Below are positions 34,884 to 63,806 of a stretch of DNA of 64,000 nucleotides, piece by piece. Below the pieces are notes generated by a model that did no database searches, had not been told where the DNA came from, and saw only the letters and a program-made list of their open reading frames with translations. Within the stretch, counting starts at the first letter, position 1. Each line of letters opens with the position of its first letter. Source of the stretch: a virus (lineage: Duplodnaviria > Caudoviricetes); the IMG/VR virus record IMGVR_UViG_3300010356_003652, positions 608 through 64,607 of that record; one strand, given 5' to 3'. A program made the position numbers and the translations under genes.

Positions 34884-34935
34884 TTAACTTTTTTATCGTA
34901 GATTTTACAATAAATATATTATATTTAAGATACTT

Positions 34936-35006
34936 AAGTTCACGTTCTTTGGAACTAGCTGCGAGAGACGGCTGTTTGGACGCGGGTTCGAATCCCGCCA
35001 CCTCCA
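34936..35006 (+). ncRNA. ssrA: tmRNA acceptor piece (permuted two-piece ssrA); 5' boundary approximate
   Basis: GGAC-GCGGG-TTCGAAT-CCCGC-CACCTCC-A: tmRNA-type T-arm and acceptor 3' strand; upstream bases pair with the coding piece. Confidence 0.85.
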
Positions 35007-35147
35007 CATCGCCAGGTTTCCTGCTTCCCTTTAAAAAGCAGGTGGTGGAAAGTTGATTATTTTTAATCAGCCCCAATGTGAGTACTCTACCTTGGGTAGG
35101 GATCCTCTCAAGGCCTTTCTGGTTGGGCCCGTTAATCAACCAGATAC

Positions 35148-35265
35148 GGGGGTGACTTTGGCTTTGACAGCAGTGCGGAAGTAGTAAGCGAACGAACTTG
35201 AGAGCGTTATAAACGGCGCATTTAAAAGTGAACTAAGGGTTGCTGCCTAAGAGGCACCTTCCTTT
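35148..35265 (+). ncRNA. ssrA: tmRNA coding piece (5' acceptor strand plus tag reading frame); 3' boundary approximate
   Basis: GGGGGTG pairs with CACCTCC including G3:U70; GACAGC helix 2; ATAAAC resume context then GGC GCA TTT AAA AGT GAA CTA AGG GTT GCT GCC TAA at 35215-35250. Confidence 0.85.
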
Positions 35266-35274
35266 ACGAGATTG

Positions 35275-35304
35275 GGCATCCTGCGAAAGTGGATGCCTTT
35301 TTTT
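35275..35304 (+). terminator. intrinsic terminator of the ssrA locus
   Basis: GGCATCC-N9-GGATGCC followed by T7. Confidence 0.85.
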
Positions 35305-35332
35305 GTGGATATATAAAGAAAAATATATCTGC

Positions 35333-35785
35333 ATGGATTTCAGAAGGGGGCAAGATCCCGTTAAGAGCTTGGGCTTAGGTTATGGAAATAAGATGAACAC
35401 CAAAGCCTGGAAAATTCTTCAATTTATAGGTAGTAAGGGGGAAGAAGGAGCAGGCCTTACAGATATTCAAAGATTTCTTTGGACAGAGCTTCAAGAGAGA
35501 TCATTAAAGGATTTTGAAATGTCATCAAATGATAAATGGGGATATAATTACCCTTCTCTGTATAATAAAACAAGAGCTACCCGCGGATATTATAATACAA
35601 ACCTTTATGGAACTAGGTATAAGCCCGGATTATTACGTAAATATTGCAGGAAAAATGAGAGGGGAAAATGGGTTCTCGAAAGGATGCCCGAGCCTGGTGA
35701 AAATATATATGAAAACGAGGGATTTAAACTTGTCCCGGAATCTCTGAATGAAATGTTAATTAAAAAGAATAGATATATAAAATAA
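35333..35785 (+). CDS. hypothetical tag-bearing protein
   Basis: MDFRRGQDPVKSLGLG; the ORF-track start at 35240 lies inside the tmRNA and terminator; GATATATA at 35308. Confidence 0.7.
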   Translation: MDFRRGQDPVKSLGLGYGNKMNTKAWKILQFIGSKGEEGAGLTDIQRFLWTELQERSLKDFEMSSNDKWGYNYPSLYNKTRATRGYYNTNLYGTRYKPGLLRKYCRKNERGKWVLERMPEPGENIYENEGFKLVPESLNEMLIKKNRYIK

Positions 35786-49617: not shown

Positions 49618-51918
49618 TTAATTATTATTCTCTAAGTCGTTATATATTCCTATACTTGCATCAACTAATTTTTGTAAAGCCTCCTGTATTGTAACTACCC
49701 TTGAACCAGCTCCTCCGGGATTGTTAATTCTAACAAATATTCTTGAAGCTAATTCATCCAGTATTGTCTGAAGATCTAGAGATTTCTCCTCTACTAAATC
49801 ACCAGCAAGATCTTTCTTACCCCAGTCATATGATAGGAATCTTGCCTGGTGCTTAAAGTATGTTCCGCTTCCCGCATTAGGATTAGGATAACCATCCTGT
49901 AAGTGGGTTATAACTCCTGTAGCATTAAGAGTCTCATCAAGCTGTATTTGAGCAGACTCCTGAGTTGCATCAGAAAGAATATTAGCAACCTGATCTGATC
50001 CTTCCAAGTTTGCAGGAAATTCGACTATAACGGAATTAGACCAAGAAGATTTAAGAGGATTCTGTGGCCAGCCGGCTTCAGAAATAGATCTGATTCTCAT
50101 TTCTACCTTTTCCCCCTTGGTAATTGGAATATCTACCTGATTTATATTGACCTGCTCGCCATCTCCTACATTCTCATCTGCCCATACATATTTTCCCAGG
50201 GCTGAATCATATACTTTAGATTTAATCGGAGACTGCATAATTTGCCAATCCGTAAATGTTCCTGTAATCTTTTGACCGGTTGAAGGATCATTATATGAAT
50301 AAGTATTTAGCGGATTTCCTGTATTATCTAATCTTAAATACCTATAGCTAATCTCAAACTGAATAACTTGCTGAGGATCCTCCGCCGAATTGGCTGTGCT
50401 TTTCTTTCCAGCAGGAATCTCAAAGAATCCTCTTACTCTGTATTTTGGATTTCCAAATACTGCATTGTTCTCATAAGCAAGAGTTGCTAGAGATTTTACA
50501 AGTGATTGATATTCTACAGTCTTTTTACTTAACTGCGAAATGTTATTATCAATCTTAGTCTGTAAGTCTTCCCTTTCTGCTGGATCCGTTAATTCAACAA
50601 GCTCTGCTTTCTGCTGAGAAATAGTTGTTTTCAAAGAACTGATAATAGTCTTCGTACTCTCAATCTGAGTTTGAGTATTCTTTATATCTTCGGTATCAAG
50701 AGAGGCATTAAGCTGAGTATTAATCTGTTTAACCGCAAACTGATCTACTGAAATAACAGGAGCATCAGGGGTAACCCCATAAAAGGCCGAAATCATTCGA
50801 TCTTTAGCCTGACCCTCCATCTGCTTTCCAAAGTCAACCACATAATTAAAATAATAGGTCTCTAAGTCCGTAGTACTATTGGCTAATGTAAGATCATTTG
50901 TATAGAAGGATATTGAATCCCCCCATGAATCAGCAATGACATTAAAATCATCATTTACTCCCTTTATGAAAATAGTATTACACTCATCATATCCAATAGG
51001 AATTCTTACATATTTTTCTGTAAATGGAGTAGAATATATGTAGAATTTATTATTGATATTAGGATTTCCAATACCAATTAGGGGAGTTAGTTTAACTCTC
51101 TTTTCTGTAACCTCTATGGAATCTATCTTATAAAGACTTTCATTATATCGAATTTGATCTCCAATTTTTAATTCAATATTCTTAACAACTGAAGCATCTG
51201 TTGTAAGACCATAATTAAGAGTATCAAGATAATACCACTGGCTTCCAGCAATTACCTTTTTATCAAGGATTGTAAAGGACCCTGTATATTTGTTAGGGTT
51301 AAGAGGAAGATCCTGAACTTCTTCATCAATCCAGTATCTCTTTCCACTTTCGTTTAGGATGTTTACGGTATCCTGATATGAATAATAATTTCCGACAAAA
51401 TTATCCTTGAACCACTGAGTTTCCGCATCATCAAAATTATCAAATATCACTCTTCTTACAACGACTCTATCCGAACGATCATCTATTTTATTTTTAAGAT
51501 CAAATTCGACATACATTTGAGGAAATAACATGTTCTCGAAGAACCAGTTATTTCTCCAATTGAATTTTGTTGGAGCCGCAACATCAACAATAGGTCTAGG
51601 TGATTTTGAAAGAGGTACAGTAGTAACACTTCTGTATGTTCCATCGTCTAAAAGAACCACGCCATTTCCTGATACAAATGTATTTACAGTATTTGATATT
51701 CGTGCTAATTGTTCTAATGTATACTGATAAGACGGCATACTATATGTGTATATTGAAGGATCTCCAGTTACCGGATCTGTTCCTTCAAATCTAACGGTTA
51801 CAGTATCTTCTTGAGATGTTAGTGTCTCGTTCATACCTGTCATTGCAGATAGAGCCAAATTAACATTTCTAGTTAAATCTGCTACGGTCTGAATAAAAGA
51901 ATTATTGCTATTTGACAT
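49618..51918 (-). CDS. hypothetical structural protein (766 aa) with a central coiled coil
   Basis: DIKNTQTQIESTKTIISSLKTTISQQKAELVEL heptads flanked by beta-rich regions. Confidence 0.7.
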   Translation of the reverse strand: MSNSNNSFIQTVADLTRNVNLALSAMTGMNETLTSQEDTVTVRFEGTDPVTGDPSIYTYSMPSYQYTLEQLARISNTVNTFVSGNGVVLLDDGTYRSVTTVPLSKSPRPIVDVAAPTKFNWRNNWFFENMLFPQMYVEFDLKNKIDDRSDRVVVRRVIFDNFDDAETQWFKDNFVGNYYSYQDTVNILNESGKRYWIDEEVQDLPLNPNKYTGSFTILDKKVIAGSQWYYLDTLNYGLTTDASVVKNIELKIGDQIRYNESLYKIDSIEVTEKRVKLTPLIGIGNPNINNKFYIYSTPFTEKYVRIPIGYDECNTIFIKGVNDDFNVIADSWGDSISFYTNDLTLANSTTDLETYYFNYVVDFGKQMEGQAKDRMISAFYGVTPDAPVISVDQFAVKQINTQLNASLDTEDIKNTQTQIESTKTIISSLKTTISQQKAELVELTDPAEREDLQTKIDNNISQLSKKTVEYQSLVKSLATLAYENNAVFGNPKYRVRGFFEIPAGKKSTANSAEDPQQVIQFEISYRYLRLDNTGNPLNTYSYNDPSTGQKITGTFTDWQIMQSPIKSKVYDSALGKYVWADENVGDGEQVNINQVDIPITKGEKVEMRIRSISEAGWPQNPLKSSWSNSVIVEFPANLEGSDQVANILSDATQESAQIQLDETLNATGVITHLQDGYPNPNAGSGTYFKHQARFLSYDWGKKDLAGDLVEEKSLDLQTILDELASRIFVRINNPGGAGSRVVTIQEALQKLVDASIGIYNDLENNN

Positions 51919-51932
51919 GGTTCAAATATTTT

Positions 51933-54900
51933 TTATTTTTTAAGTTCATTAATTTCATCAATTTCCCTTCTAAGCTCATCAATCATTTTTTGCTGTTCCT
52001 TGATGGCTTCTATGAGATAAGGAATTATCTCTGTATATCTAACTGTCTTATAGAGTGTATCCTCCTCTCCAGTTTCAAGAGGAACGGTTGTTTCTACTAC
52101 AACTTCTGGAATGATTTTTTCAATCTCCTGAGCAATAACACCAAGGTGTCTTTCCCCAGTTTTCTTTCTATCATATGAAACCCCTCTGACCTGAAGAATC
52201 TTTTCTAGCGGATTCTCTAATTCCTCTATATTCTCTTTAAGCCTGATATCTGAGATTACAGATGAATAACCTACTATATCGTTATCAGCTTCAAATTTCC
52301 CTGTATCGATAGTAAATCTAAATCTAATAGTTCCATCATCATTTAGATCAAGATACCTACTAGTATTATTCCAATAGAATCCTGTATCTGTATCGTTAGC
52401 AAATTGGATAACATATCCATCACTTGCCGGAAATTTTATAGGTACAGCAGATTGTAAAGCCGAGCTATCTAGAGTTAATCTTTCTACAGATGCATTTCCT
52501 GCATAGAAAAAGATATTTGAAGCATACTCTGATCCTCCTGTATTATCTCCCCCTAAATAAATATCTCCATGGGTTCCAGCCGTCGAGCCTGTTTTTATAT
52601 ATAGGTCACCGCTTGAAGAAGCCCCTCCGCCTGTTCTTACAACTAAATCTCCGCCATCCGTATCAGATCCTGCACCTGTTATTGTTAGGGATCCTGCACT
52701 TCCAGTAATTCCCAGCATTCCAATTGTTCTTGTTGAAGCATGAGTAACATATAGTCCACCGCTAACGTCCAATTGAGTACCATTATATGATAAGCCAGCT
52801 TCTCCGTTAATTGTACTTCCTCCAGTTGCAGTTAAGACGTAATTATTAACGTTATTAGAAATAGACGTAACTGCTCCTCCGCCTCCTGAAGTCCTCTTAA
52901 TCCTGTTTCCATCTGCTGTATCAACATATAGTACCTCATTAGCTCCAGCTGTACCAGTAGGAATATTCGTAGTTGTTCCGAGGATAATAGCACTCGTATC
53001 GGTTGTTCCTATAAATACTCTTCCATCTCCTGCATAAGAAGCTCCCAATCCGCCTTTAATATAAGCATTTCCGCCAGTTGCTACTCCTGAGTTTCCCCCG
53101 GTTAAAGTAGCATCACCGCCGCCTCCTGAACCAGCTCCACCCCTGACATAAATATCTCCGCCCAAGCTGTTAGAATTTTGGGCTTCTAAGTAGAGATTAT
53201 AGCTAGTTCCTGTAGTGGATGATTCTATTCCTATAGTTCTATGAGCGCCGGATTTAAGAGTTATATTTCCTGAAACGTCCATCGCTCCATTGACAGATAG
53301 CTTAGAAGTTGCATTCGCGTATCCTATTCCAAAAAGGCCTCCAGTTGTTATAGATAGCGAATAAGCTGGATCTCCAATACCTCCTCCTGCATAATCATTA
53401 GTAAGATATAAATTTGTATCACTTGCTTTGCTACCTAATTTTGCATTTGCTATTCCTAGCTGCCATAATTCTATAGATGTCTCTTGTCCTCCTGGCATTG
53501 TAACGCTAATAGGCTTGTCTCCGGTCATTGAAGTACCAGTCCCTACGTGTAATAATCCATAAACATAGAGAGCTTCATTTGAAATTACTGCAGGATGATT
53601 TATTGCAATATTTCCAAGAATAGGGCCATTAAGATATAGCGAACTATCAATTCTAGCATCCCCAGCCACATGAAGTGCTGTTGAAGGTTCCGATGTTCTA
53701 ATGCCCAAGCTCTTTGTAGCTATTTTCCAGTTAAAGCTAGCATCTGCTTCCATAGTTCCGCCGGAATTAAACTGGATATTTCCGGTACTTCCGGCAGCAC
53801 TTACGTCCGATGAAGCTATTATTTCTAAATATCCATTAATCCACCGGAATTGAGTTCCTACTGATGTATCAGAAATATAGCTCTTATCGAAATTAAAAGA
53901 GGAACTAGTAATTTTATCTACAGATAGGTAAGATAATTTTGTTGATCCATCTACTTTTAGGTGTCCTAATATCGACACATCATCTCTTAAGAGAATATTA
54001 TTAGAGGTATCAATATGAAGAGCAGAAAGAAGATTTCCTGTATAGATATCCACTTCCCTATAATTTGTTGATGCTCCGAGTTGTAATGGGGACCCATATC
54101 CAAGTATTATATTATTGGACGTATCTCTTACAGCATTCTGTATAATAACTTCATCAAGTTTGGTAGTTCCTGAAACATGAAGAGGATAGCTAGGATACTG
54201 AACTTTAACACCAACATTTCCAAATTTCATATAGACTGAAGAATCTACAAGAGGATCATCCCCATCAGCAAATAGTGCTAATGCATTTGGGGTTCCCGTT
54301 ATATCTCTTCCTATATCATTAACCTGGAATTGTAAAGCTTGAAGATCGTTTAGGATCTGAGTCTGAGTCGATTGTACTTCAATATAGTTTTCGGAAATGC
54401 CCTGAATAACACTATTATTTTGAGTCAATAGGTTGACTGCAGTATTAAGATTTGCGAAAGCTTCGGTCCAGTCCTCTGCATATAGCTGATCAGAAGTTGC
54501 CATATCAACTATGGTTGCTCCCGTATCATCCACCATATTATCGGTTTTAATGTTAAGACGTAATGAATATGATGTACCGAATCCGGAAGGCCCGCTCTGA
54601 ATCTTTTCAAGTGCGGGAAGAAGAATTCCGTCAAGAGGAATATTTGCTGAATTACCAGATGGAGCGTCTATAAATAGAACTCCTAATAGGTTTCTTCCTA
54701 ATATTTCTTCCTGCGTTGAATTCCATACTGTATAATAGATAAGAACTGCATTAAATTCGAAACTATCATTTATAGAATTCTGAATAGCCATTTTATCATA
54801 GGTCAATTCAGTATCTCCATATATGTCCTTTAGCTCATCAAGATTAAAGACAAGAGAAAGACAGTCGACTTTGGACCTACGGAATTCAACGGTACTTCCC

Positions 54901-55838
54901 CCATTGGTATATTTGAGATCTACATTATAGATTCCAGTAGTCTGATAAGAAGATGAATCAATTAAATATGCATTATCGGCTGCTATAGGATCTATTCCTT
55001 CCGCAGTATACCACCATCCATCGGAATAAACCCCCGTGGAGTTATCAAATTGAAGTGTCCAAGTTCCATCAGGAGCTACAACCTGAGTTGAAGAATCAAC
55101 AAAGTCATAATATGCTAAATAGCTTAATCCGTCTGGGTGGGGAAGAGTATATGATTCTCTTCCTAATATTTTTTCTCCTAATCCTCCTATTTCCATTCCA
55201 TGGTAGTAGTTATCATCATCGACTATTTCGAAGTATGCATCCATTTGACCATGGGAGGTGGGCACTAGAATATAGGTCTCATTATAAGTTCCAAAAGAGT
55301 CTGTACGAACGTTACCCGCTGAAACCTGACCTAGATACTTAACAACCGAATTATAACCTAGCGAACCATCTGCATCTATTTCTTCAGACCAGTACTGTTT
55401 TGAGCCAACAGATACATCCTTACTCCATCGGATAGCACCTGATTCTTTAAGCCATTTCCAGAATACTCTTTCGGAAACTGTTCGAATAAGAGTAGGATTA
55501 TAATCTTCTCTATTTAAGAGATTGGATTCTAAGTTTAATGCATAGTTCTCGAAAGATTCTGCTATTAAGACTCTTCCATCTTTAATAGATGGATTCCCCT
55601 GCTCATATTCAAAAGCTCCGGCAATATTTGTAATTGCAAATCTATTCTGAACCACGCCATCTGGTGGATCCTGCTGAATCGAAGGAATATTAAGAAGTGC
55701 AAAGTTTGAAATCTTTACAACATTATTTCTCTCGTTAATATTAAGACCGATATCCTCAACAGCAGAACTGAACGTATAGATCGTTCCGCCGTTCGTACGC
55801 AGCCTTTTAACAAATGGAGTAATTCTATTATTGCTCAT
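51933..55838 (-). CDS. long tail fibre with C-terminal peptidase S74 chaperone
   Basis: Gly-rich repeats; SDIRLKENI...GVIAQEIEKIIPEVV...YTEIIPYLIEAIKEQQ. Confidence 0.85.
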   Translation of the reverse strand: MSNNRITPFVKRLRTNGGTIYTFSSAVEDIGLNINERNNVVKISNFALLNIPSIQQDPPDGVVQNRFAITNIAGAFEYEQGNPSIKDGRVLIAESFENYALNLESNLLNREDYNPTLIRTVSERVFWKWLKESGAIRWSKDVSVGSKQYWSEEIDADGSLGYNSVVKYLGQVSAGNVRTDSFGTYNETYILVPTSHGQMDAYFEIVDDDNYYHGMEIGGLGEKILGRESYTLPHPDGLSYLAYYDFVDSSTQVVAPDGTWTLQFDNSTGVYSDGWWYTAEGIDPIAADNAYLIDSSSYQTTGIYNVDLKYTNGGSTVEFRRSKVDCLSLVFNLDELKDIYGDTELTYDKMAIQNSINDSFEFNAVLIYYTVWNSTQEEILGRNLLGVLFIDAPSGNSANIPLDGILLPALEKIQSGPSGFGTSYSLRLNIKTDNMVDDTGATIVDMATSDQLYAEDWTEAFANLNTAVNLLTQNNSVIQGISENYIEVQSTQTQILNDLQALQFQVNDIGRDITGTPNALALFADGDDPLVDSSVYMKFGNVGVKVQYPSYPLHVSGTTKLDEVIIQNAVRDTSNNIILGYGSPLQLGASTNYREVDIYTGNLLSALHIDTSNNILLRDDVSILGHLKVDGSTKLSYLSVDKITSSSFNFDKSYISDTSVGTQFRWINGYLEIIASSDVSAAGSTGNIQFNSGGTMEADASFNWKIATKSLGIRTSEPSTALHVAGDARIDSSLYLNGPILGNIAINHPAVISNEALYVYGLLHVGTGTSMTGDKPISVTMPGGQETSIELWQLGIANAKLGSKASDTNLYLTNDYAGGGIGDPAYSLSITTGGLFGIGYANATSKLSVNGAMDVSGNITLKSGAHRTIGIESSTTGTSYNLYLEAQNSNSLGGDIYVRGGAGSGGGGDATLTGGNSGVATGGNAYIKGGLGASYAGDGRVFIGTTDTSAIILGTTTNIPTGTAGANEVLYVDTADGNRIKRTSGGGGAVTSISNNVNNYVLTATGGSTINGEAGLSYNGTQLDVSGGLYVTHASTRTIGMLGITGSAGSLTITGAGSDTDGGDLVVRTGGGASSSGDLYIKTGSTAGTHGDIYLGGDNTGGSEYASNIFFYAGNASVERLTLDSSALQSAVPIKFPASDGYVIQFANDTDTGFYWNNTSRYLDLNDDGTIRFRFTIDTGKFEADNDIVGYSSVISDIRLKENIEELENPLEKILQVRGVSYDRKKTGERHLGVIAQEIEKIIPEVVVETTVPLETGEEDTLYKTVRYTEIIPYLIEAIKEQQKMIDELRREIDEINELKK

Positions 55839-55860
55839 ATTCTAGGTTAATTTTCTTTTT

Positions 55861-56556
55861 TTAAGATATTGTATAAGTTCCGCCTGATTGTTTTACGATC
55901 CAAGTTGGACCCCAAGAAGCATCATAAGCGATATTGATTAGTTTTATCCAAGTTCCTGCCGAAGCATCAGGAAGAGTAACTCTTAAAGTCTTTACTGGAC
56001 CTTCCGAAGTTGACTGTAATAGAATCGTATAATCATCAGCTGTCAAAACATCTAAATCAAAAATCACTTGGAATTCCTGACTAATATTATTATTCTGGAA
56101 ACCATAAGATGCATCATTAGAGATCTTAATATATGGAGTTTGTACATCCACCCACGAAAAAGCTGAAGGCTCTAATGGCCATAGTGTTGTTGATGGATCA
56201 ACTAATATGGATCCATCGGATGGTCTCCACCTAATAAGTGATGAAGGATCGCTAGTTGCTAGCCTTGTTGACACATCTGCTCCAAGATAAGAATTAACGA
56301 AGTCTAGATCTGCAGTAGTAGTATTCTGATATAGATTTGTAAACTGATTTCTAACTACAAGGTTATCTACAACACAAGTTACAAATTCACCTCTAGCTCC
56401 TTTTACTCTTCCAGCTGTCTCAAGAGGCTTTATAATTATTTCTCTATTTTCATCATAGAATACATCCAAATATCTCTTAAAAGAAGAGAAGTTTCCGTTC
56501 CAAAATTTAGGTAGTTCCGGGATGAATGTATCGAGGTAGATTTGACTCCAATCCAT
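55861..56556 (-). CDS. hypothetical structural protein, first gene of the minus-strand module
   Basis: ORF preceded by reverse-strand GATATATA at 56574-56581. Confidence 0.7.
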   Translation of the reverse strand: MDWSQIYLDTFIPELPKFWNGNFSSFKRYLDVFYDENREIIIKPLETAGRVKGARGEFVTCVVDNLVVRNQFTNLYQNTTTADLDFVNSYLGADVSTRLATSDPSSLIRWRPSDGSILVDPSTTLWPLEPSAFSWVDVQTPYIKISNDASYGFQNNNISQEFQVIFDLDVLTADDYTILLQSTSEGPVKTLRVTLPDASAGTWIKLINIAYDASWGPTWIVKQSGGTYTIS

Positions 56557-56664
56557 ATCTTATAGTTTTATTTTATATATCTCCGCTATTTAAAAAGGTC
56601 CTTTTTCAGGCGAAAAAAGATTTCATATATAGGATATAATGTCGAACTATTAAACTAAAATAAA

Positions 56665-57906
56665 ATGAGCGAAACAGGATTTGAAGGCTTCAACTGGGAA
56701 AAGTACGAAAATTGGAACGGTGCAAGCTTAAGAGTGAATAATAAAATAAAGGGGCAAGATCGAAAAACAAAGGTTTATTCCTTTGAACCATATGCTCAGG
56801 AACTGTTCGACCTCTACAATAATCAAACCCATAAATTTATTAGAAAAGACCTTGAAAGAGGAGATGTAGTTCCTATTGTGGAATTCTCCTTTATCGATGG
56901 TTCTGGGAAAATGATGGTGGAGATTTTAGGAGGTCTAACTATAGATGTTGATTTAGGAAGGGAAAAGAGGTTTATTCAGATCTACGGATTTAATACCATT
57001 TCCGAATTTATCGAGGCCTTTAATACAGCAGAAAAGAGGAAGCAATTTATCGATCATGGAATCTATGCCTATGTGGTAGAATCGTCTCCAGCCGTAAAAG
57101 TTTCCCTCTGGCAAGGTCATATCAAGAAGATTAAGGACGAATTCATGGAGCAAATTCAGTCTCCTTCAAGAGCTTATGTTGCAAAAATAATTGAGGCAAA
57201 TAGGGGTGGATTCTTTGTAGAAGTTCAAGGAGTTGAGGCATTCATGCCAGGATCTCTTGCAGCTCCGAATAAGATTATTGATTTTGAATCATATGTGGGA
57301 AAAGAAGTCGTTGTAATGATAGAGGACTTCTTACAAGATATGAATTCATTTATAGTCTCTCATAAGAAATATATTGAACATGTTCTTCCTCAGAAGATTT
57401 CAGAACTATCTCTATCGCAGAAATATTCGGGATCAGTTACAGGAACTTCCAAATATGGGATCTTCGCCGAATTTAATGATATCTTCACCGGATTGCTTCA
57501 TAAGAGCAAAATGAAAGAAGATACTTATCATAAGTTCAGAAATAGACAATATAATCCTGGTGATGCTCTTGAATTCTATATTTCAGAAATTACGAAAGAT
57601 AATAGAATTATACTTACAGAAGAGAGTCCCGAAGAGAAAAGGGAAAAGATTCTCAAATTTGTTGAAAAATATGATAATAAGCCTATTGATGCTGAGGTTG
57701 CAGCTATTATGAATTTCGGTCTTATTGTTAACGCAGAAGATCTATCTGGAGTGGTTCCAAATAAGGAATTCAGAAAAGCTCACACATCTCCTAAAAATTT
57801 CGTTATAGGGGATAAGATGAAATTAAAACTATTTGAAATTAAAGAGGGAGATAAACTCGTATTTACATTCTGGCTTGAACAGGAGAAAAAAGAGGAAGGA
57901 GCTTAA
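56665..57906 (+). CDS. rpsA: ribosomal protein S1-like protein (about 4 S1/OB domains)
   Basis: AKIIEANRGGFFVEVQGVEAFMPGSL, VGKEVVVMI...IVSHK, GSVTGTSKYGIFAEF..TGLLHKS, AEVAAIMNFGLIV. Confidence 0.82.
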   Translation: MSETGFEGFNWEKYENWNGASLRVNNKIKGQDRKTKVYSFEPYAQELFDLYNNQTHKFIRKDLERGDVVPIVEFSFIDGSGKMMVEILGGLTIDVDLGREKRFIQIYGFNTISEFIEAFNTAEKRKQFIDHGIYAYVVESSPAVKVSLWQGHIKKIKDEFMEQIQSPSRAYVAKIIEANRGGFFVEVQGVEAFMPGSLAAPNKIIDFESYVGKEVVVMIEDFLQDMNSFIVSHKKYIEHVLPQKISELSLSQKYSGSVTGTSKYGIFAEFNDIFTGLLHKSKMKEDTYHKFRNRQYNPGDALEFYISEITKDNRIILTEESPEEKREKILKFVEKYDNKPIDAEVAAIMNFGLIVNAEDLSGVVPNKEFRKAHTSPKNFVIGDKMKLKLFEIKEGDKLVFTFWLEQEKKEEGA

Positions 57907-57922
57907 TGCTCCTTTCTTTTTT
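57895..57922 (+). terminator. intrinsic terminator
   Basis: AAGGAGC-TTAAT-GCTCCTT followed by T-rich tract. Confidence 0.75.
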
Positions 57923-57948
57923 TAGATAAATAGAATAAAAGAGGATTT

Positions 57949-59358
57949 ATGCGTCCAAAGGAATATTCTGTTAGAGAAGTTTTTAATAATACATCAATAG
58001 GACTTAAATTCGAGTTCTTTTCTTCTAAAAAGACTGAATTTATTGCTGAAGACCTGTCAAAGGCTTTAGGAAAAAATGTAGTTATCACTGGTGATTTCAA
58101 AAGTATTCCAACTTGGTCATCCTCTGTTCTATTAAAAGAATACAACGGAAAAAGACCTAGATACCAATTAAAAGTAGCTCAGCAGGATTATCCATCGATA
58201 TTAACTGGATTACATTCAGTTCTTGAATGGATAAAAGAAAATGCTGCTCTTGATTACAGCACAAAATTATCTATAGATTTATCCTTTAATCATAGGCACT
58301 TACAAACTCTTTCATCCATATCTCATATGGATATAGGAAAAATGATTCTCAAGATTGATGAGAATTTCCTCTATAATAAATTTCCCATGATGTCTAAATC
58401 TCCCTTTGCGTTATCTGTAAAGAGAATAATTCCATTTGATGGGTTTATCAATATTTCTACTTCTCTATCAAATTTAGGAAATAATTTCCAGCTTCCCGTA
58501 TCTGAACACTATGCGATAGACTTTACAGAACAACCAATGGGAATTCTCCGCTTTAACTATATTGGTGGAAAATATACCGAAAAACTTCATGAGGTCAATG
58601 AGGCTATAAAATATTATATTATTTCAACATATCAGGTTCTAAATACATCAGGATTTAGTGTTGATATGAAACATGAATTGGATAAGATCGTTGAAAATTA
58701 TTCGAAGATAAGAAGATGCTATAATGAGCCTGATTTCTTTTTGAAAGAGTTTAAAGATATTAAGGTCTCAGTAGATCTTAAAATAGGAGAGCAAGTAATA
58801 AAAACATATTGGGACAAGATGAGATCTCCCCTCTTAAAACTTATGTTAGAAACGGATATCAAAAAAGGATACTTTAACTGGGATTCAGATTTAGGGCGAT
58901 TTGAACTAAATAATTCTGAAATATCAGGAGCAAAAATAAAAGGCCTTAATCTTATTGATTGTAAAGTAACGGGGCTTATAGAAAACTGCCATTTATGGAG
59001 AAGTAATTTAGAAAATTCCAGAATAATTAATTCGGTTATTGTAGCAGGAAATAAGATCCAATCCTCTCTAGTAGAAGGATGCCGAGCAGATAGGGGGAAC
59101 ACTATAGAAAGATCATATATAATAAACAGAGGAGAAATTATTAATTGTAAGGTTAATGAATCTATTATAAAAAATGCAGGCCTAGGGGCTCAAGCTAAAA
59201 TTGATGAAGAATGCACTGTTATAGAAGATCGTCAAAAGCTCTCCCCCGAACCGGCAAAAGGAATAGCTTCCGAAGAGATCAGAGATTACAAATGGATAAA
59301 GAGCATGAGCAAGTCTGAAGATAAAGGATTTGGGAATGAATATAAAATTAAATACTAA
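57949..59358 (+). CDS. degenerate amidoligase-like protein with a C-terminal beta-helix
   Basis: IGLKFEFF, YSTKLSIDLSF and ILRFNYIGG echo amidoligase GxEFEF, SCGLHIN and IEFR..GG; C-terminal repeats such as IENCHL and IINSVI. Confidence 0.45.
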   Translation: MRPKEYSVREVFNNTSIGLKFEFFSSKKTEFIAEDLSKALGKNVVITGDFKSIPTWSSSVLLKEYNGKRPRYQLKVAQQDYPSILTGLHSVLEWIKENAALDYSTKLSIDLSFNHRHLQTLSSISHMDIGKMILKIDENFLYNKFPMMSKSPFALSVKRIIPFDGFINISTSLSNLGNNFQLPVSEHYAIDFTEQPMGILRFNYIGGKYTEKLHEVNEAIKYYIISTYQVLNTSGFSVDMKHELDKIVENYSKIRRCYNEPDFFLKEFKDIKVSVDLKIGEQVIKTYWDKMRSPLLKLMLETDIKKGYFNWDSDLGRFELNNSEISGAKIKGLNLIDCKVTGLIENCHLWRSNLENSRIINSVIVAGNKIQSSLVEGCRADRGNTIERSYIINRGEIINCKVNESIIKNAGLGAQAKIDEECTVIEDRQKLSPEPAKGIASEEIRDYKWIKSMSKSEDKGFGNEYKIKY

Positions 59359-59360
59359 AG

Positions 59361-60095
59361 ATGACTAAAGCCGAATTAGTTGAAGAAGTAAAGGGGGAAT
59401 TAACTGCTTCCTGCGCTCTACCATATTCGCCTCCAACAAAAGAGATCGAAAGGATAATCGATAAGGAGATGAGGTGGCTTTATAGAGAGTATCGAGAATT
59501 GCTACAGGATAAAATATACGTTATTAATAGAAGATATTTCCAAACGCCTGAGTTTAAAAACTCCAGGACTATGCAAATGAATAATTGCACAGAAGGTGTT
59601 AAGAAAGTTGTTGAAATGACTGGCGGTAGTAGAGTCTTTGGTATTAATGATCCAGATATGAGTTTTGATAGACTTATGGCATCGGATCTATATTTAACCC
59701 CCCTTTCATCAGATCAGATTACTTATAGAACTATTCAGTGGAGTTTCTGGGATTTAGCTAGAGGATTTAATCTGGTTGATATAAATCATGATTTTAATCC
59801 TAATACTCATAGACTTATTATAACTGGTCGAACACCAAATGAGAGTCTAATGGTATTAGCTATGGACCATATTCCGGAAGAGGATGCTTATGAAGATACA
59901 GTGGTTATAGAATGGATGATTGCAAAATCGAAAATATCTTTGGCAAGAATTTTAGGAGCATTTAATTATAATCTTTTAGGAAACGTTACAATTAATTTTG
60001 AACAGTGGAGATCAGAGGGGCAGGAAGAATTAGAGAGATTAAGAGAGAAAATAAAAGGCGATGATACTGCCGACTGGTTCCTATTTTTCCCATAA
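59361..60095 (+). CDS. gp13: neck protein (T4 gp13-like)
   Basis: EWMIAKSKISLARILGAFNYNLLGNVTINFEQWRSEGQEELERLREKI resembles the gp13 C-terminus (..LPGGVTIDG..EARxExE.LREEL). Confidence 0.7.
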   Translation: MTKAELVEEVKGELTASCALPYSPPTKEIERIIDKEMRWLYREYRELLQDKIYVINRRYFQTPEFKNSRTMQMNNCTEGVKKVVEMTGGSRVFGINDPDMSFDRLMASDLYLTPLSSDQITYRTIQWSFWDLARGFNLVDINHDFNPNTHRLIITGRTPNESLMVLAMDHIPEEDAYEDTVVIEWMIAKSKISLARILGAFNYNLLGNVTINFEQWRSEGQEELERLREKIKGDDTADWFLFFP

Positions 60096-60103
60096 TAGAT
60101 AAT

Positions 60104-60529
60104 ATGAAGTTAGTAAGAGAATATATTGAACCAGTTAATTTTTATAGCAAGATGGATTTTGAAAAAACAGGAGATCCTCTAAAGGATATGCAGTTGGGTC
60201 AGAAAGCTAGAATATCTCAGTGGCTAGATTCCAAGGGAATCGAGAACTATAAAATTCTGGAGGACCTAACTATCGATGTTTTTGATGACGTAAATTTAGT
60301 TGGGGAGGAGTTGGAAGAATTACCAGAATTCATCAAATTTAATAAGATATATGGCGGATTTTATGCAGGAGGGAATAATTGGAAAAATCTTGAAGGATTT
60401 CCTAAAGAAGTTCTGGGAGATTTTCAGTTAAGATCCCCTTCAGCCCCAGCTTTTTATAATATTGTTAAGAGATTTAAAGAAGAAAAAATAAGAAAATTAA
60501 TAAAAATTCATGGGAAAGTTTACAACTAA
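60104..60529 (+). CDS. tag-bearing protein with an LRR-like/beta-solenoid repeat
   Basis: MKLVREY..MDFEKTGDPLKDMQLG; KFNKIYGGFYAGGNNWKNLEGFPKEVLGDF. Confidence 0.6.
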   Translation: MKLVREYIEPVNFYSKMDFEKTGDPLKDMQLGQKARISQWLDSKGIENYKILEDLTIDVFDDVNLVGEELEELPEFIKFNKIYGGFYAGGNNWKNLEGFPKEVLGDFQLRSPSAPAFYNIVKRFKEEKIRKLIKIHGKVYN

Positions 60530-62234
60530 TCAGATGATAGAGTTTTATCCCAGATGGGAAGATCATATCATGGAGACCAAGGGAGGATCACCAATCCCCA
60601 AGGCTGCAAAGATTGATGAAATGGGAACAGTCTATACTAAGGATGGTGAAGCTATAGATATGAAGCATCTCCGAAATGAGATGGAGAGTGCTAAAACAGC
60701 TATTGTTTCTCAGTCTCCTCTTTTTGCTCCGTATGTTCATAATTTCACTCCTATCTATACATGGCTAGTTCCTACAATGGCAACCGATGGAATTAGACTA
60801 TTTGTTAACCCTAAGTTCGCTAATGATCTAGACTGGAATCAGAAAATATTTGTTATAATTCACGAGATTATGCACTGTGTTCTTCTTCATATAGATCGTC
60901 AGAAAGGAAGGGACCCTAAATTATTTAACGTTGCAGGAGATTTAGAGATAAATCCTCTTATTGTCGATACGATTAACGATTTTGACGAGGCATTTATTAA
61001 AAAATTAGGAGGTCTTTACGATAAAAAATATCTTAATCAGCCTGTAGAATTTATTTATGAGGATATTAAGAAGAATATGCCTAATATGCCTCCAAACCAG
61101 CAAAATAATCAAGGATCCGGTCAGGGTGACCCACAACAAGGTCAGGGTCAGGGCTCCGGCGGGGGACAAGGGCAAGGAGGAGGCGGAGGTCAGCCAGGAA
61201 AGATTGATCCAAAGGTCGGAGATAAAGTAAAAATTAGAGCTACCGGTCAGGAGGGGGTAGTTAGTGCTATAAATCCCGACGGAACTTATGAAGTAGATAT
61301 TGTTAATGAAAGTTTCTATCCCTCATTAAAAGCTCTTTTAGAGAGTTATACAAGAGAAGAAATTATTCCTATTATTGAAGGTCCAGCACCTCCTCCAGCA
61401 AGTGGAAATGTAGGAGGAGCAGGAGATCCAAATAGCGAAGTTATCTATAAACAAATGGCCGAACACGATCCCGCGGGAACAGGTGGAGTTATCTCAGAAG
61501 AGCAAGGAAAGAAAATTGCTCAGGAATCAGGATATGATGTAGAAGCAGGGGAAGCAGGACCAGATGTCAATGCTAAAGATAAGTGGAACGTTGAGTCTTC
61601 AAAGATGCTTGACCAAATGGAAAAATCCAAGCAATATGGATCCGGTAAGGGAAAAGCTCTATTGACTGCTCTTGCTCGAATTCACAGAGGAGAAGTTAAC
61701 TGGAAGAATATCTTCCGTAGATATGTAGCAACCGCACTATCTCCAGAAATCTATCACCGAATTGGAAATAAGAAACACCTGGGTAAAGAATATCTCAAAT
61801 ATGGTGAGAAAAAGAAAATGGATTCACTTGAAAATATCGTGGTTCTTGTAGACGTATCCGGTTCTATGAGTAAAGAAGTTCTCGAGAGAATTCTGGGAGA
61901 AATAAATTCAATTATATTTTCCAAAAGAGTTAATACCATTACAGTTGCTTTCTTTGATGATGGAGTTGATAAGAATAGCGTCCAGAAAATTAAAAAACAT
62001 GGATCAAGACCATGGATTCCAAAGAATGTCGCTGGTGGAGGCGGAACAAACTTTCAAAAGGCATTAGATTGGGTAAGTGAAGAATTACATGATAGAGTCT
62101 CTCTACTTGTATTCTTTACTGATGGATATGCTCCTATGCCTAAAAAACCTAAATATACAAACAAATTTATCTGGGTTCTTTATGATAATGCTACATTCCA
62201 GCAGCCATTTGGTAAAATGATTAATTTAAGTTAA
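60510..62234 (+). CDS. metallopeptidase-VWA protein (DUF2201-like architecture)
   Basis: TMATDG, HEIMH (HExxH), MIDAS VDVSGSMS, GGGTNF, FTDG. Confidence 0.85.
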   Translation: MGKFTTNQMIEFYPRWEDHIMETKGGSPIPKAAKIDEMGTVYTKDGEAIDMKHLRNEMESAKTAIVSQSPLFAPYVHNFTPIYTWLVPTMATDGIRLFVNPKFANDLDWNQKIFVIIHEIMHCVLLHIDRQKGRDPKLFNVAGDLEINPLIVDTINDFDEAFIKKLGGLYDKKYLNQPVEFIYEDIKKNMPNMPPNQQNNQGSGQGDPQQGQGQGSGGGQGQGGGGGQPGKIDPKVGDKVKIRATGQEGVVSAINPDGTYEVDIVNESFYPSLKALLESYTREEIIPIIEGPAPPPASGNVGGAGDPNSEVIYKQMAEHDPAGTGGVISEEQGKKIAQESGYDVEAGEAGPDVNAKDKWNVESSKMLDQMEKSKQYGSGKGKALLTALARIHRGEVNWKNIFRRYVATALSPEIYHRIGNKKHLGKEYLKYGEKKKMDSLENIVVLVDVSGSMSKEVLERILGEINSIIFSKRVNTITVAFFDDGVDKNSVQKIKKHGSRPWIPKNVAGGGGTNFQKALDWVSEELHDRVSLLVFFTDGYAPMPKKPKYTNKFIWVLYDNATFQQPFGKMINLS

Positions 62235-62273
62235 AATTATTAGGATAAATATAAAAAATATAAATACGAAAAA

Positions 62274-63806
62274 ATGAAAAAACTAGTTAGCGAATCCATT
62301 CAGGAGTTTAGAGAAAGAAAAGCTCTTAATGAAGGCGTATTCTCCAAAATAGGAGGTGCCATTAAGAGATTTTTACAAAAAGTAGGAAAATTCTTCTGGT
62401 TCTTAAATCCAGAAGGCCAGGCCGAACCTGTTATTGCTCCTGTTAATATTGGTATTATGACCAAAGGAAGAATGATCAATCCTGCTATTTCTTTCTTACC
62501 TAATCAAGCAGACTTAGAATTGGAGCCTGGATTAAGATCTGAAACGGCTGAAAAGATCCTCGCAAAAAGAGGTCCAGAAGAGGCTAATGAAAATCTTAAT
62601 GAGGCGAGAGTTCAGCTTGAACACCCAGATAAAAACGTTCCTAATGTTAATAAGGACGAGCTCTATATGGAAATTGAAATGGCACTTGAAAATCCGGAAG
62701 GAAAACCTCTTATGATTTGGGGAGCTCCTGGTATTGGAAAGACAAAAATTGTTCAGGCAGTTTTAGGTGCTAACTCAAAGGGAAGACTTATTGACGTTCA
62801 GACTTCAAAAATGGCTCCAGATGACTGGGCTCTTCCTGCAATTGCTAAAATGGAAACAGGCGAATTAAAACCTCTTGACCTTCCTAAATCTTGGCTTCCT
62901 GTCTATAAACCAACTGGAGATCCCAAGAAGGATAAGGAATTGGATGATGCAGCTAACGAAGGTGAAGGCGGAGTTCTATTCTTGGATGAGCTTTCAAGAG
63001 CATCCGGTTCAGTTCAGAACACCTGTCTAAAACTCGTAGACGAAAGAATTATTGGAGACGCTAGAATTGGTTCAAAATGGGTTATTATTGCTGCTTCCAA
63101 CAGAGCAGAAGACGATCCCGATTCGGTTCAGAACTTCTCAACCGCTCTTGGAAACAGATTCGAACAGGTTAATTACGTTCCTGATTTTAAAGGATGGAAA
63201 GAATGGGGTATTGATAAAATAGACCCAAGAATCCTAGACTTCCTAGAATTCAACCAGGAATACTTCTATACACTAGAGGATGATCCCGAAAAATCCATCT
63301 TTGCTTCTCCACGTTCATGGCATGCTGCTTCAGATGCAATGGCTAAATTAATGCAATGGGGTAAGAAAAATGGCAAACGTATTACCATTCCTATGCTAAC
63401 TAAGGCAATTGGTAAAAACGTTGGTATGGATATTGCTACAGAACTTAGCACATTCCTCAGATTACTTGAAACTTTCAGGAAAGAGGATATCGAAAAGATC
63501 CTTAAAGATCCTGATAAAGCTCCGCTTCCAAAGAAAGCTGGTTCTGGATATGATCAGTCAGAAGCTAATGCTCTTATATCTCTTGTAATTACTTCAACAA
63601 GAGGTAGAGAACTAGATCCTAAGGAATTTACTAACTTTGCTAAATATCTTGTAAGACTTGACAATCCATCTCTTGCAACAAGAGGACTTAAGATGATGTT
63701 TGACGTTCATAAGTATATGCACGAAGAACTGGGTGAAGTAGAAGGACGCGACAAATACAAAGAAGGTGTAGATATCTTCATCGAAAAATATAAAGATATA
63801 TTCTAA
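62274..63806 (+). CDS. MoxR/AAA_5-type ATPase, partner of the VWA protein
   Basis: WGAPGIGKT, LFLDELSRA, AASNRAED, ALGNRF, SPRSW. Confidence 0.88.
   Translation: MKKLVSESIQEFRERKALNEGVFSKIGGAIKRFLQKVGKFFWFLNPEGQAEPVIAPVNIGIMTKGRMINPAISFLPNQADLELEPGLRSETAEKILAKRGPEEANENLNEARVQLEHPDKNVPNVNKDELYMEIEMALENPEGKPLMIWGAPGIGKTKIVQAVLGANSKGRLIDVQTSKMAPDDWALPAIAKMETGELKPLDLPKSWLPVYKPTGDPKKDKELDDAANEGEGGVLFLDELSRASGSVQNTCLKLVDERIIGDARIGSKWVIIAASNRAEDDPDSVQNFSTALGNRFEQVNYVPDFKGWKEWGIDKIDPRILDFLEFNQEYFYTLEDDPEKSIFASPRSWHAASDAMAKLMQWGKKNGKRITIPMLTKAIGKNVGMDIATELSTFLRLLETFRKEDIEKILKDPDKAPLPKKAGSGYDQSEANALISLVITSTRGRELDPKEFTNFAKYLVRLDNPSLATRGLKMMFDVHKYMHEELGEVEGRDKYKEGVDIFIEKYKDIF

What the first reader, a model, noticed from the sequence alone, without database searches (positions are those of the whole stretch)
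56665..57906. Phage ribosomal protein S1 homologue co-occurring with a phage tmRNA
Seen: a 413-aa protein with about four S1/OB repeats, its own terminator, and divergent placement from the tail module. Gene leaders here are A-rich and lack an obvious AGGAGG. Established: bS1 binds A/U-rich leaders and tmRNA, bS1 homologues have been reported in huge phages, and Bacteroidota initiate largely without SD. Inference: S1 plus tmRNA form a translation-takeover module that biases ribosomes toward phage leaders and recycles ribosomes stalled on degraded host mRNA.
Basis: partly seen in the sequence, partly recalled or inferred. Interest (0 to 1): 0.7.

Follow-up and report, generated by a model that had tools for sequence, protein, structure and literature searches.

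The report
Megaphage four-domain ribosomal S1 copy
A fragment of a roughly 400-kb wastewater phage of probable Bacteroidia hosts carries a shortened copy of ribosomal protein S1 that keeps the host-type segment used to dock on the small ribosomal subunit; this kind of gene was already described in huge phages, and its link to the phage tmRNA is no more than presence in the same genome.

Summary
ORF 56665-57906 (+) encodes a 413-aa protein with three Pfam S1 hits and four OB domains in an AlphaFold model. It has its own promoter-like box, an A-rich leader without a Shine-Dalgarno (SD) motif, and a terminator hairpin. It is transcribed divergently from tail-fibre genes. A permuted tmRNA lies 21 kb upstream.

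It belongs to a large phage-only family of about 330-430 aa, found in Lak megaphages and the huge phages of Al-Shayeb 2020. In about 48 related contigs the gene sits at the same place.

Three results tie it to true bS1:
- Domain 2 matches only E. coli bS1 domain 2.
- The N-terminus is collinear with the N-terminus of class Bacteroidia bS1 (FNW motif, YSxE, aromatic helix).
- A modelled complex with Bacteroidia uS2 passes (0.72 against 0.00 for controls) at the known S1-S2 interface. This may reflect likeness to solved structures.

The "S1 plus tmRNA module" is not supported. Their spacing ranges from 21 to 156 kb, no SmpB was found, and selectivity for phage leaders has no evident basis.

Al-Shayeb 2020 already proposed phage rpS1 together with SD-less genomes. 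This scan has also reported the same family on other genomes. Verdict: new member of a known kind.

The parts
56625..56640 (+). Promoter-like box ATATATAGGATATAAT (ATATATA-N3-TATAAT)
   Evidence: Read directly from the sequence. The same box is conserved 25-40 nt upstream of the ATG in most of 24 relatives. Its function is inferred.
56641..56664 (+). A-rich leader without an SD motif, ending ...TTAAACTAAAATAAA before the ATG
   Evidence: The motif TTAAAC(C/T)TAAAATAAA is conserved in relatives whose protein is only 53-73% identical.
56665..57906 (+). CDS of the 413-aa four-domain bS1-like protein
56665..56850 (+). N-terminal docking module (aa 1-62): FNWEKYE motif, VYSFE strand, aromatic helix YAQELFDLY
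   Evidence: It is collinear with the class Bacteroidia bS1 N-terminus. These residues form the modelled interface with uS2. Y43 and A44 are invariant in the family, and F9, Q45 and F48 are at least 90% conserved.
56851..57114 (+). OB domain 1 (aa 63-150) with a helical insert of about 21 aa (aa 101-130)
   Evidence: AlphaFold model. It has no sequence-level match to any E. coli bS1 domain. The insert is shared with Lak but not with LR7565xx phages or bacteria.
57157..57384 (+). OB domain 2 (aa 165-240), bS1 domain-2 type (GGFFVEVQGVEAFMPGSL)
   Evidence: The family HMM scores 32.9 bits against E. coli D2 and at most 6.7 bits against the other five domains.
57403..57630 (+). OB domain 3 (aa 247-322), canonical RNA-binding S1 domain
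   Evidence: This is the best Pfam stretch, aa 253-317. It scores 33.6 bits against E. coli D4 and 23.3 against D5. G256, F267, F270, H279, D312 and R314 are invariant.
57667..57879 (+). OB domain 4 (aa 335-405), a more divergent S1 domain
   Evidence: It is absent from the 369-aa Lak-A2 homologue.
57889..57923 (+). Intrinsic-terminator-like hairpin (14 bp, stop codon in the loop) followed by a T-run
   Evidence: Its position is conserved, with differing sequences, in about 17 of 26 relatives.
34914..35341 (+). Circularly permuted tmRNA gene, tag GAFKSELRVAA
   Evidence: ARAGORN and Rfam RF04321 at 62.5 bits. It is in the same genome but not linked to S1.
55861..56556 (-). 231-aa conserved structural-module gene transcribed divergently from S1
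   Evidence: Synteny in about 45 related loci. It lies next to a tail-fibre gene with a Peptidase_S74 domain.
57949..59358 (+). 469-aa conserved downstream neighbour with weak left-handed beta-helix matches, preceded by a GATAAATA box and the only SD-like AAGAGGA nearby
59361..60095 (+). Head-tail adaptor Ad2-like gene
   Evidence: PHROG 211, E 7e-8. Synteny.

Best explanation
The gene encodes a phage paralogue of ribosomal protein bS1, descended from a bS1 of class Bacteroidia type and cut down to four OB domains. Its layout is an N-terminal docking segment, D1 and D2 (the ribosome-binding half), then D3 and D4 (the RNA-binding half). The proposed mechanism has three steps. First, the gene is made as its own transcription unit inside the virion-structure region. 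Second, the protein docks on protein uS2 of the host 30S subunit at the site normally held by the loosely bound, exchangeable host bS1. It uses the aromatic helix YAQELFDLY, the preceding strand and the FNW motif. Third, D3-D4 capture single-stranded A-rich leaders and feed them into the mRNA channel, which sustains or raises initiation on SD-less messages during infection.

Shown here:
- homology and collinearity with bS1;
- the four-domain fold (model);
- the bS1-specific domain 2;
- the Bacteroidia-type N-terminus;
- conserved RNA-binding residues in D3;
- SD-less leaders across the window;
- fixed synteny, and a promoter box, leader and terminator of its own.

Inferred:
- actual binding to the 30S subunit;
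- timing of expression;
- any effect on translation.

The tmRNA is a separate translation-related gene of the same genome. It would depend on host SmpB.
For: - **Domain content.** Pfam S1 gives 3 stretches. All the best NCBIfam hits are rpsA models, collinear over aa 132-395 with model positions 63-334.
- **Solved structures.** The best PDB sequence and fold matches are bS1 on the ribosome, with 9gut_B at E 4e-19 and the D1-D2 chain 9guq_B at TMt 0.63.
- **Domain 2.** The family HMM scores 32.9 bits against E. coli D2 and at most 6.7 bits against the other domains.
- **Collinearity.** MAFFT aligns window residues 68/171/253/341 with E. coli 23/108/194/280, the starts of D1 to D4.
- **N-terminus.** F-[DN]-W, then YSxE, then an aromatic helix occurs in 20 of 29 sampled Bacteroidia bS1. 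It occurs in 1 of 27 others from the phylum sample and not in E. coli, Myxococcota or Spirochaetia. hhalign gives E 5.5e-4. A Bacteroidia N-terminus HMM hits 21 phage-family proteins at E<0.01, the best at 1.3e-6.
- **Conservation pattern.** Between this protein and Lak-A2, the N-terminus (45% identity) and D2 (47%) are the best conserved parts.
- **Modelled complex with uS2.** The score is 0.72 against 0.00 for the best of 3 controls. In calibration the mark was reached by 58 of 80 solved complexes and by 2 of 110 mismatched pairs. The three runs agree in at least 73% of contacts, and partner pLDDT is at least 76. The interface uses uS2 H15-L19, F32 and N203/D205-S209. These are the residues of the E. 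coli S1-S2 crystal interface (PMC4288201).
- **Sufficiency of a short form.** E. coli domains 1-3 suffice for S1 activity on the 30S (PMC3858243).
- **Family size.** There are 487 clusters at E<1e-5 and 150 representatives at E<1e-30, all about 330-430 aa. None was found in GTDB species genomes.
- **Synteny and leaders.** The gene order is fixed in about 48 loci, and leaders are SD-less.
- **Literature.** F. johnsoniae bS1 stimulates initiation on an SD-less mRNA (PMC9976891).
Against: - The whole-protein score is 83 bits against the rpsA cutoff of 577.
- D1 has no sequence similarity to any bS1 domain and carries a 21-aa insert.
- The D2-D4 tree puts the phage family on a branch of 4.5 substitutions per site, outside all sampled bacteria. 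It neither shows nor rejects a Bacteroidia origin (AU p 0.47).
- The complex model can pass through likeness to solved S1-S2 structures, and the uS2 used is a stand-in (Segatella-type) for an unknown host.
- The hhalign probability is only 30%.
- Host leaders in Bacteroidia are also A-rich and SD-less, so how the protein could favour phage messages is unclear.
- No phage S1 has been tested experimentally in the papers I read.
Confidence: 0.6

Rival explanations
1. The protein works off the ribosome as an RNA-binding factor. It would act as an RNA chaperone, a protector of phage mRNA, or a cofactor of a phage RNase or RNA polymerase. Host S1 plays comparable roles for T4 RegB and for the Q-beta replicase.
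For: D3 keeps the canonical RNA-binding residues. S1 domains are widespread in non-ribosomal proteins (PMC6375957). Al-Shayeb et al. leave open a role 'on or off the ribosome'. Host bS1 is used off the ribosome by T4 and Q-beta. D1 is strongly diverged.
Against: The best conserved parts are the N-terminal docking segment and D2, not the RNA-binding domains. The N-terminus keeps the host-type motifs. No catalytic or partner domain is fused.
Confidence: 0.2
2. The protein is a competitive blocker. It occupies the bS1 site on uS2 but, lacking D5-D6, it changes or reduces initiation on host mRNAs and so shuts off the host.
For: It is truncated to four domains, and to three in Lak. The modelled interface is the same as the bS1-uS2 interface.
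Against: E. coli D1-D3 retain full S1 activity on the 30S, so truncation need not inactivate the protein (PMC3858243). Phage genes have the same SD-less leaders as Bacteroidia hosts and would be blocked as well.
Confidence: 0.1
3. One reading: S1 and the phage tmRNA act together as one takeover module. S1 would load the phage tmRNA onto stalled ribosomes and bias ribosomes toward phage leaders.
For: Both genes are present in the window. Both are present in 3 of 3 related records that are at least 64% complete. Lak-A2 and LR756500 carry the S1-like gene and a standard tmRNA. From background knowledge, not checked here, E. coli S1 binds tmRNA.
Against: The spacing is 21, 34, about 146 and about 156 kb in different relatives, and no tmRNA lies within 60 kb upstream of S1 in G080. 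No SmpB was found in four records. LR756502 and LR756501 have the S1-like gene but no tmRNA above threshold. Huge phages carry many translation genes, so joint presence is expected without any coupling. An earlier report of this scan found that such genes are inherited independently.
Confidence: 0.08

Closest known systems
'Possible rpS1' genes of huge phages (Al-Shayeb et al. 2020, Nature, PMC7162821), including Prevotella Lak megaphages and LR756500-LR756504
   Same: They are direct homologues: 36-37% identity to Lak over aa 9-330 and 30-33% to the LR7565xx records. All occur in huge-phage genomes that lack SD motifs and carry tmRNA. The published hypothesis is the same, namely redirection of initiation. 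The S1, 469-aa protein and adaptor gene order is also seen in LR756500.
   Different: This subclade comes from activated sludge and anaerobic digesters. It has four domains and a 21-aa insert in D1. Lak has three domains. Its tmRNA is the permuted two-piece type, whereas Lak-A2 and LR756500 have the standard type.
Bacterial ribosomal protein bS1 (rpsA, TIGR00717), especially of class Bacteroidia
   Same: The order of N-terminal helix, D1, D2, D3 and D4 is collinear. Domain 2 is bS1-specific. The FDW/YSxE/aromatic-helix N-terminus is of the Bacteroidia type. The modelled interface with uS2 is the same.
   Different: It has 413 aa and four domains, against about 590-650 aa and six. It scores 83 bits against a cutoff of 577. 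D1 is unrecognisable by sequence. About 16 extra residues lie between the FNW motif and the YSxE strand. It forms a separate long-branch clade and was not found in cellular genomes.
bS1 of jumbo cyanophage PhiMa05 (ISME J 2026, PMC13157829)
   Same: It is a phage-encoded bS1 proposed to replace the host protein.
   Different: The PhiMa05 gene groups with Vampirovibrio ribosomal proteins and lies among other ribosomal protein genes. The gene here belongs to an old, phage-only family that sits in the virion-structure region.
Short S1 proteins of Firmicutes and cyanobacteria/chloroplasts (three or four OB domains)
   Same: They have a reduced number of domains (PMC3858243). Chloroplast S1 chains appear among the matches.
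   Different: Those proteins have a different first domain and their ribosome binding is doubtful. The phage protein keeps the Gram-negative, Bacteroidia-type docking segment.

Membership tests
Ribosomal protein bS1 (rpsA) | Tandem S1/OB domains collinear with bS1 D1-D4 | tested here: met
   The model has four OB domains. The rpsA HMM aligns aa 132-395 to model positions 63-334. MAFFT matches the domain starts to E. coli 23/108/194/280.
Ribosomal protein bS1 (rpsA) | Whole-protein score above the curated rpsA cutoff (equivalog) | tested here: not met
   83.4 bits against the cutoff of 577 for TIGR00717. All other rpsA models are also far below their cutoffs.
Ribosomal protein bS1 (rpsA) | The specialised second domain (GG-x-V-x3-G-x2-AF-x-PGS) | tested here: met
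   The family HMM of domain 2 scores 32.9 bits on E. coli D2 and at most 6.7 bits on D1 and D3-D6. The motif is aligned.
Ribosomal protein bS1 (rpsA) | N-terminal aromatic helix and D1 that dock on uS2 (Phe32, Zn pocket) | tested here: inconclusive
   The helix YAQELFDLY is conserved. The modelled complex scores 0.72 against 0.00 for the best control, at uS2 F32, H15-L19 and N203/D205-S209. This matches PMC4288201. It is a model only and may pass through likeness to solved complexes.
Ribosomal protein bS1 (rpsA) | Six OB domains (Gram-negative form) | tested here: not met
   Four domains, with nothing beyond aa 413.
Ribosomal protein bS1 (rpsA) | Branches within bacterial bS1 in a tree | tested here: inconclusive
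   The phage family is one clade (SH-aLRT 100) on a branch of 4.5 substitutions per site, and it joins the longest bacterial branch. A clade with Bacteroidia is not rejected (AU p 0.47).
Ribosomal protein bS1 (rpsA) | Physical component of the 30S subunit | not testable with these tools
   This needs co-sedimentation, pull-down or cryo-EM.
Huge-phage 'possible rpS1' (Mahaphage/Lak group) | Homology to the S1-like genes of Lak and LR7565xx phages | tested here: met
   tblastn gives E 4e-54 to Lak-A1/A2/C1, and 4e-31 to 8e-20 to the LR7565xx records.
Huge-phage 'possible rpS1' (Mahaphage/Lak group) | Genome of a huge phage with few or no SD motifs | tested here: met
   The record is 16% complete at 64.6 kb. 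A relative of 405 kb has terminal repeats. 0 of 53 leaders contain GGAG.
Non-ribosomal S1-domain proteins (PNPase, RNase R/II, NusA, Tex, CvfD/GSP13) | A catalytic or partner domain beside the S1 domain, or a single small S1 domain | tested here: not met
   Only S1 passes in Pfam. Hits to PNPase, RNase R and NusA models cover one S1 domain at 21-30 bits.
tmRNA-SmpB ribosome rescue system (as a phage-encoded unit) | tmRNA gene together with SmpB | tested here: not met
   The tmRNA is present. No SmpB (PF01668) was found in the window's record or in three relatives, one of them complete.

The most novel reading that the evidence does not exclude
The phage protein out-competes host bS1 on uS2 through an enlarged docking module: the FNW motif, a phage-specific insert of about 16 residues, a strand and the aromatic helix. 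It thereby creates a phage-specific population of ribosomes during synthesis of virion proteins. The strongly conserved leader TTAAACTAAAATAAA of its own mRNA would be the site through which it limits its own synthesis, as bS1 does in E. coli.
Probability: 0.15. Interest if true: 0.65.

Novelty: new member of a known kind. Interest (0 to 1): 0.35.

Why it matters
Bacteroidia start translation without Shine-Dalgarno pairing, and bS1 is the main candidate for recruiting mRNA in them. A phage-made bS1 that keeps the host docking segment would be a natural tool for asking how bS1 selects messages in this class. It would also allow a test of the 2020 proposal that huge phages re-equip host ribosomes, which is still untested. 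The specific residues named here (F9, W11, Y43, F48, Y51) and the conserved leader make that test concrete. As a discovery it adds detail to a known gene class and does not open a new one.

Tried and rejected
- **Tree against host RpsA**. It is uninformative about the donor. The phage clade sits on a very long branch and is attracted to the longest bacterial branch.
- **GTDB species genomes** scanned for relatives: none found, so there is no host hint from binned contigs.
- **PHROGs** for the S1 protein: no family.
- **SmpB and bS21** in four records: none found.
- **Permuted-tmRNA model** on Lak and LR7565xx: none. The standard model found tmRNA in two of the four.
- **Metatranscriptome contigs**. 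Short contigs from two RNA libraries of one anaerobic-digester study lie within the S1 gene (56659-56910, 57583-57885) and within tail-fibre genes. These are contigs, and DNA carry-over is not excluded, so they show neither transcription level, nor transcript ends, nor timing. Parts without cover mean nothing.
- **Assignment of the promoter box to an early or late class.** The ATATATA box precedes both structural and non-structural genes, so timing stays open.
- **The idea that the predicted beta-strand contact is phage-specific.** Rejected, because the YSxE strand motif is also present in Bacteroidia bS1.

Full report
**Observation.**
The ORF at 56665-57906 (+) is real and encodes 413 aa. Pfam finds the S1 domain (E 6.9e-20, three stretches). 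An AlphaFold2 model built on 30 homologues (mean pLDDT 80.5) shows four OB domains at about aa 68-147, 171-232, 253-318 and 341-402. They are preceded by a 60-residue N-terminal segment with short helices.

The gene has several signals of its own:
- a promoter-like box, ATATATAGGATATAAT, at 56625-56640;
- a 24-nt A-rich leader;
- a 14-bp hairpin with the stop codon in its loop, followed by a T-run, at 57889-57923.

It is transcribed divergently from a 231-aa gene and from tail-fibre genes with Peptidase_S74 chaperone domains. Over 53 genes of the window the 20 bases before the start are 54% A and 9% G. None contains GGAG, and pairing to the anti-SD is weaker than in coding sequence (-0.64 against -2.84 kcal/mol). 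A permuted tmRNA lies at 34914-35341 (ARAGORN; Rfam RF04321 at 62.5 bits).

**What the DNA is.**
The window is nearly all of a 64.6-kb IMG/VR virus record that CheckV rates 16% complete. A relative with terminal repeats is 405 kb.

The nearest named phages for the S1 protein are the Prevotella Lak megaphages (36-37% identity) and the LR7565xx huge phages of Al-Shayeb et al.. That paper places these in the 'Mahaphage' clade, with predicted Bacteroidetes hosts. Near-identical DNA occurs in activated-sludge, wastewater and anaerobic-digester metagenomes from more than ten studies.

**The family.**
The protein belongs to a large family:
- 487 clusters at 90% identity with E<1e-5, the top 120 all about 400-420 aa and on contigs of up to 376 kb;
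- 150 representatives at 50% identity with E<1e-30, with a median length of 381 aa.

No relative was found in one genome per GTDB species.

In about 48 IMG/VR loci the gene order is kept: 231-aa gene (minus strand), then S1, the 469-aa protein and the Ad2-like head-tail adaptor (plus strand). LR756500 has the same downstream genes.

The promoter box, the leader motif TTAAAC(C/T)TAAAATAAA and a terminator hairpin are also conserved. The hairpin keeps its position while its sequence differs. The gene is therefore a self-contained transcription unit at a fixed place in the virion-structure region.

**Is it bS1 or just an S1-domain protein?**
Four lines of evidence point to bS1.

- *Database matches.* The best NCBIfam matches are all rpsA models and are collinear (aa 132-395 to model positions 63-334). 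The score is only 83 bits against a cutoff of 577. The best PDB sequence and fold matches are bS1 on ribosomes.
- *Domain-by-domain comparison.* I built family HMMs of each phage domain and scored them against the six E. coli domains. Domain 2 matches only E. coli domain 2 (32.9 bits against at most 6.7). Domains 3 and 4 match the RNA-binding domains D3-D5. Domain 1 matches nothing by sequence.
- *The N-terminus.* The conserved FNWExYE motif, a VYSxE strand and the helix YAQELFDLY line up with the N-terminus of bS1 from class Bacteroidia (…DF[DN]WD…YSxEE…LExxYxxTL…). That motif occurs in 20 of 29 sampled Bacteroidia bS1, in 1 of 27 others from the phylum sample, and not in E. coli, a myxobacterium or a spirochaete. 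hhalign gives E 5.5e-4 with a probability of only 30%. An HMM of the Bacteroidia N-terminus hits 21 phage-family members at E<0.01, the best at 1.3e-6. The helix corresponds to the E. coli N-terminal helix, whose Phe5 and Phe9 stack on Phe32 of S2 and are required for ribosome binding (PMC4288201).
- *Conservation pattern.* Between this protein and the Lak-A2 homologue, the N-terminal segment (45% identity) and D2 (47%) are the best conserved parts. Lak lacks D4 altogether.

**Docking model.**
I modelled aa 1-165 (with its alignment) against a Bacteroidia uS2 alignment whose first row is from a Segatella copri genome.
- The score was 0.72, against 0.00 for the best of three controls.
- In the tool's calibration that mark was reached by 58 of 80 solved complexes and by 2 of 110 mismatched pairs.
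- The three runs agree in at least 73% of contacts, and partner pLDDT is at least 76.

The confident contacts join uS2 F32 and strand 31-38 to phage residues 35-39 and 44-51. They also join uS2 H15-L19 and N203/D205-S209 to the D1 loop at 84-94. This is the interface seen in the E. coli S2-S1 crystal structure.

Because like complexes are solved, the pass may come from memory. It shows likeness, not binding. The uS2 is also a stand-in for an unknown host.

**Tree.**
On the D2-D4 columns the phage family is one clade (support 100). It is separated from all sampled bacterial bS1 by about 4.5 substitutions per site, and it joins the longest bacterial branch. Forcing it together with Bacteroidia costs 0.8 log-likelihood units (AU p 0.47). 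The tree neither shows nor rejects a Bacteroidia donor. I left out a number of near-duplicate bacterial rows, several long-branch phage rows and three short paralogues; they are listed in the scripts.

**The tmRNA link.**
The permuted tmRNA and the S1-like gene are both present in the three related records that are at least 64% complete. Lak-A2 and LR756500 have a standard tmRNA. LR756502 and LR756501 have none above threshold.

The distance between the two genes varies:

| Record | Distance from S1 to tmRNA |
|---|---|
| this window | 21 kb |
| G079 | 34 kb |
| G003 | about 146 kb |
| G001 (complete, 405 kb) | about 156 kb |
| G080 | none within 60 kb upstream of S1 |

No SmpB and no bS21 were found in four records. 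The two genes share a genome but are not a physical unit. Whether they co-occur more often than other translation genes of huge phages was not tested.

**Mechanism.**
The best-supported reading has confidence 0.6. It is a host-derived bS1 paralogue that docks on uS2 in place of the exchangeable host bS1 and uses D3-D4 to recruit A-rich, SD-less messages.
- E. coli domains 1-3 suffice for S1 activity on the 30S (PMC3858243), so a three- or four-domain form can be functional.
- F. johnsoniae bS1 is sub-stoichiometric on purified ribosomes and stimulates initiation on an SD-less mRNA (PMC9976891). Extra supply during heavy synthesis of virion proteins is therefore a simple rationale.
- Selectivity for phage over host messages is not supported by anything seen here, since both kinds of leader look alike.

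The rivals are an off-ribosome RNA-binding role (0.2), a blocker of the bS1 site (0.1) and a functional S1-tmRNA pair (0.08).

**Novelty.**
Al-Shayeb et al. (2020) already reported rpS1-like genes, tmRNA and SmpB in huge phages. They also noted that genomes with possible rpS1 rarely have SD motifs, and they proposed a role in initiation on or off the ribosome. A phage bS1 was also described in PhiMa05 in 2026.

This scan has reported the same four-domain family on other genomes, with the same conclusion. I reached the N-terminal motif before reading those notes.

The present case adds a wastewater and digester subclade, the per-domain evidence, the Bacteroidia-specific N-terminal match, the conserved leader and terminator, and the negative result on linkage with the tmRNA. 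It is a new member of a known kind.

Noticed in passing
window 34914-35341; G001:C1:62335-62516; G002:C1:56319-56499; G003:C1:222816-223099; Lak-A2 142603-142997; LR756500 94509-94921: This subclade carries a circularly permuted tmRNA (Rfam RF04321, 60-67 bits). The related Lak-A2 and LR756500 phages carry a standard one-piece tmRNA (58 and 95 bits). The tmRNA type therefore changed within the wider clade.
   Followed up: partly
window 56641-56664 and the same place in loci L002-L050: The last 15 nt or so of the S1 leader (TTAAAC(C/T)TAAAATAAA) are conserved across relatives whose proteins are only 53-73% identical, much better than the rest of the intergenic space. This could be a site of autoregulation, as in E. 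coli rpsA, or part of the promoter.
   Followed up: partly
window 57949-59358: The 469-aa protein always follows S1 in relatives. It has only weak left-handed beta-helix or hexapeptide matches in its C-terminal third. It is the only gene nearby with an SD-like AAGAGGA, and it is preceded by a GATAAATA box at 57925-57932.
   Followed up: no
window 40966-41589 (-): A homing-endonuclease-like gene (PHROG 314, E 9e-40) sits inside the tail-fibre block.
   Followed up: no
window 60510-63806: A DUF2201 metallopeptidase-VWA protein and a MoxR-type AAA ATPase form a pair just after the adaptor gene.
   Followed up: no
PDB entry 9zcd chain A: A solved 591-aa '30S ribosomal protein S1' matches Segatella copri bS1 at 815 bits, so a Bacteroidia-type bS1 structure now exists. 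It was not in the fold library used, so the FDW segment could not be inspected.
   Followed up: no
Lak-A2 locus L055:7941-9050: The Lak homologue is 369 aa and lacks the fourth OB domain. It keeps the FNW motif (SFNWTPYEDGWNG) and the D1 helical insert.
   Followed up: partly
window 51900-62300: Contigs from two metatranscriptome libraries of an anaerobic-digester study lie on parts of the S1 gene and of the tail-fibre genes. This is a weak hint of expression in the field, and DNA carry-over is not excluded.
   Followed up: partly
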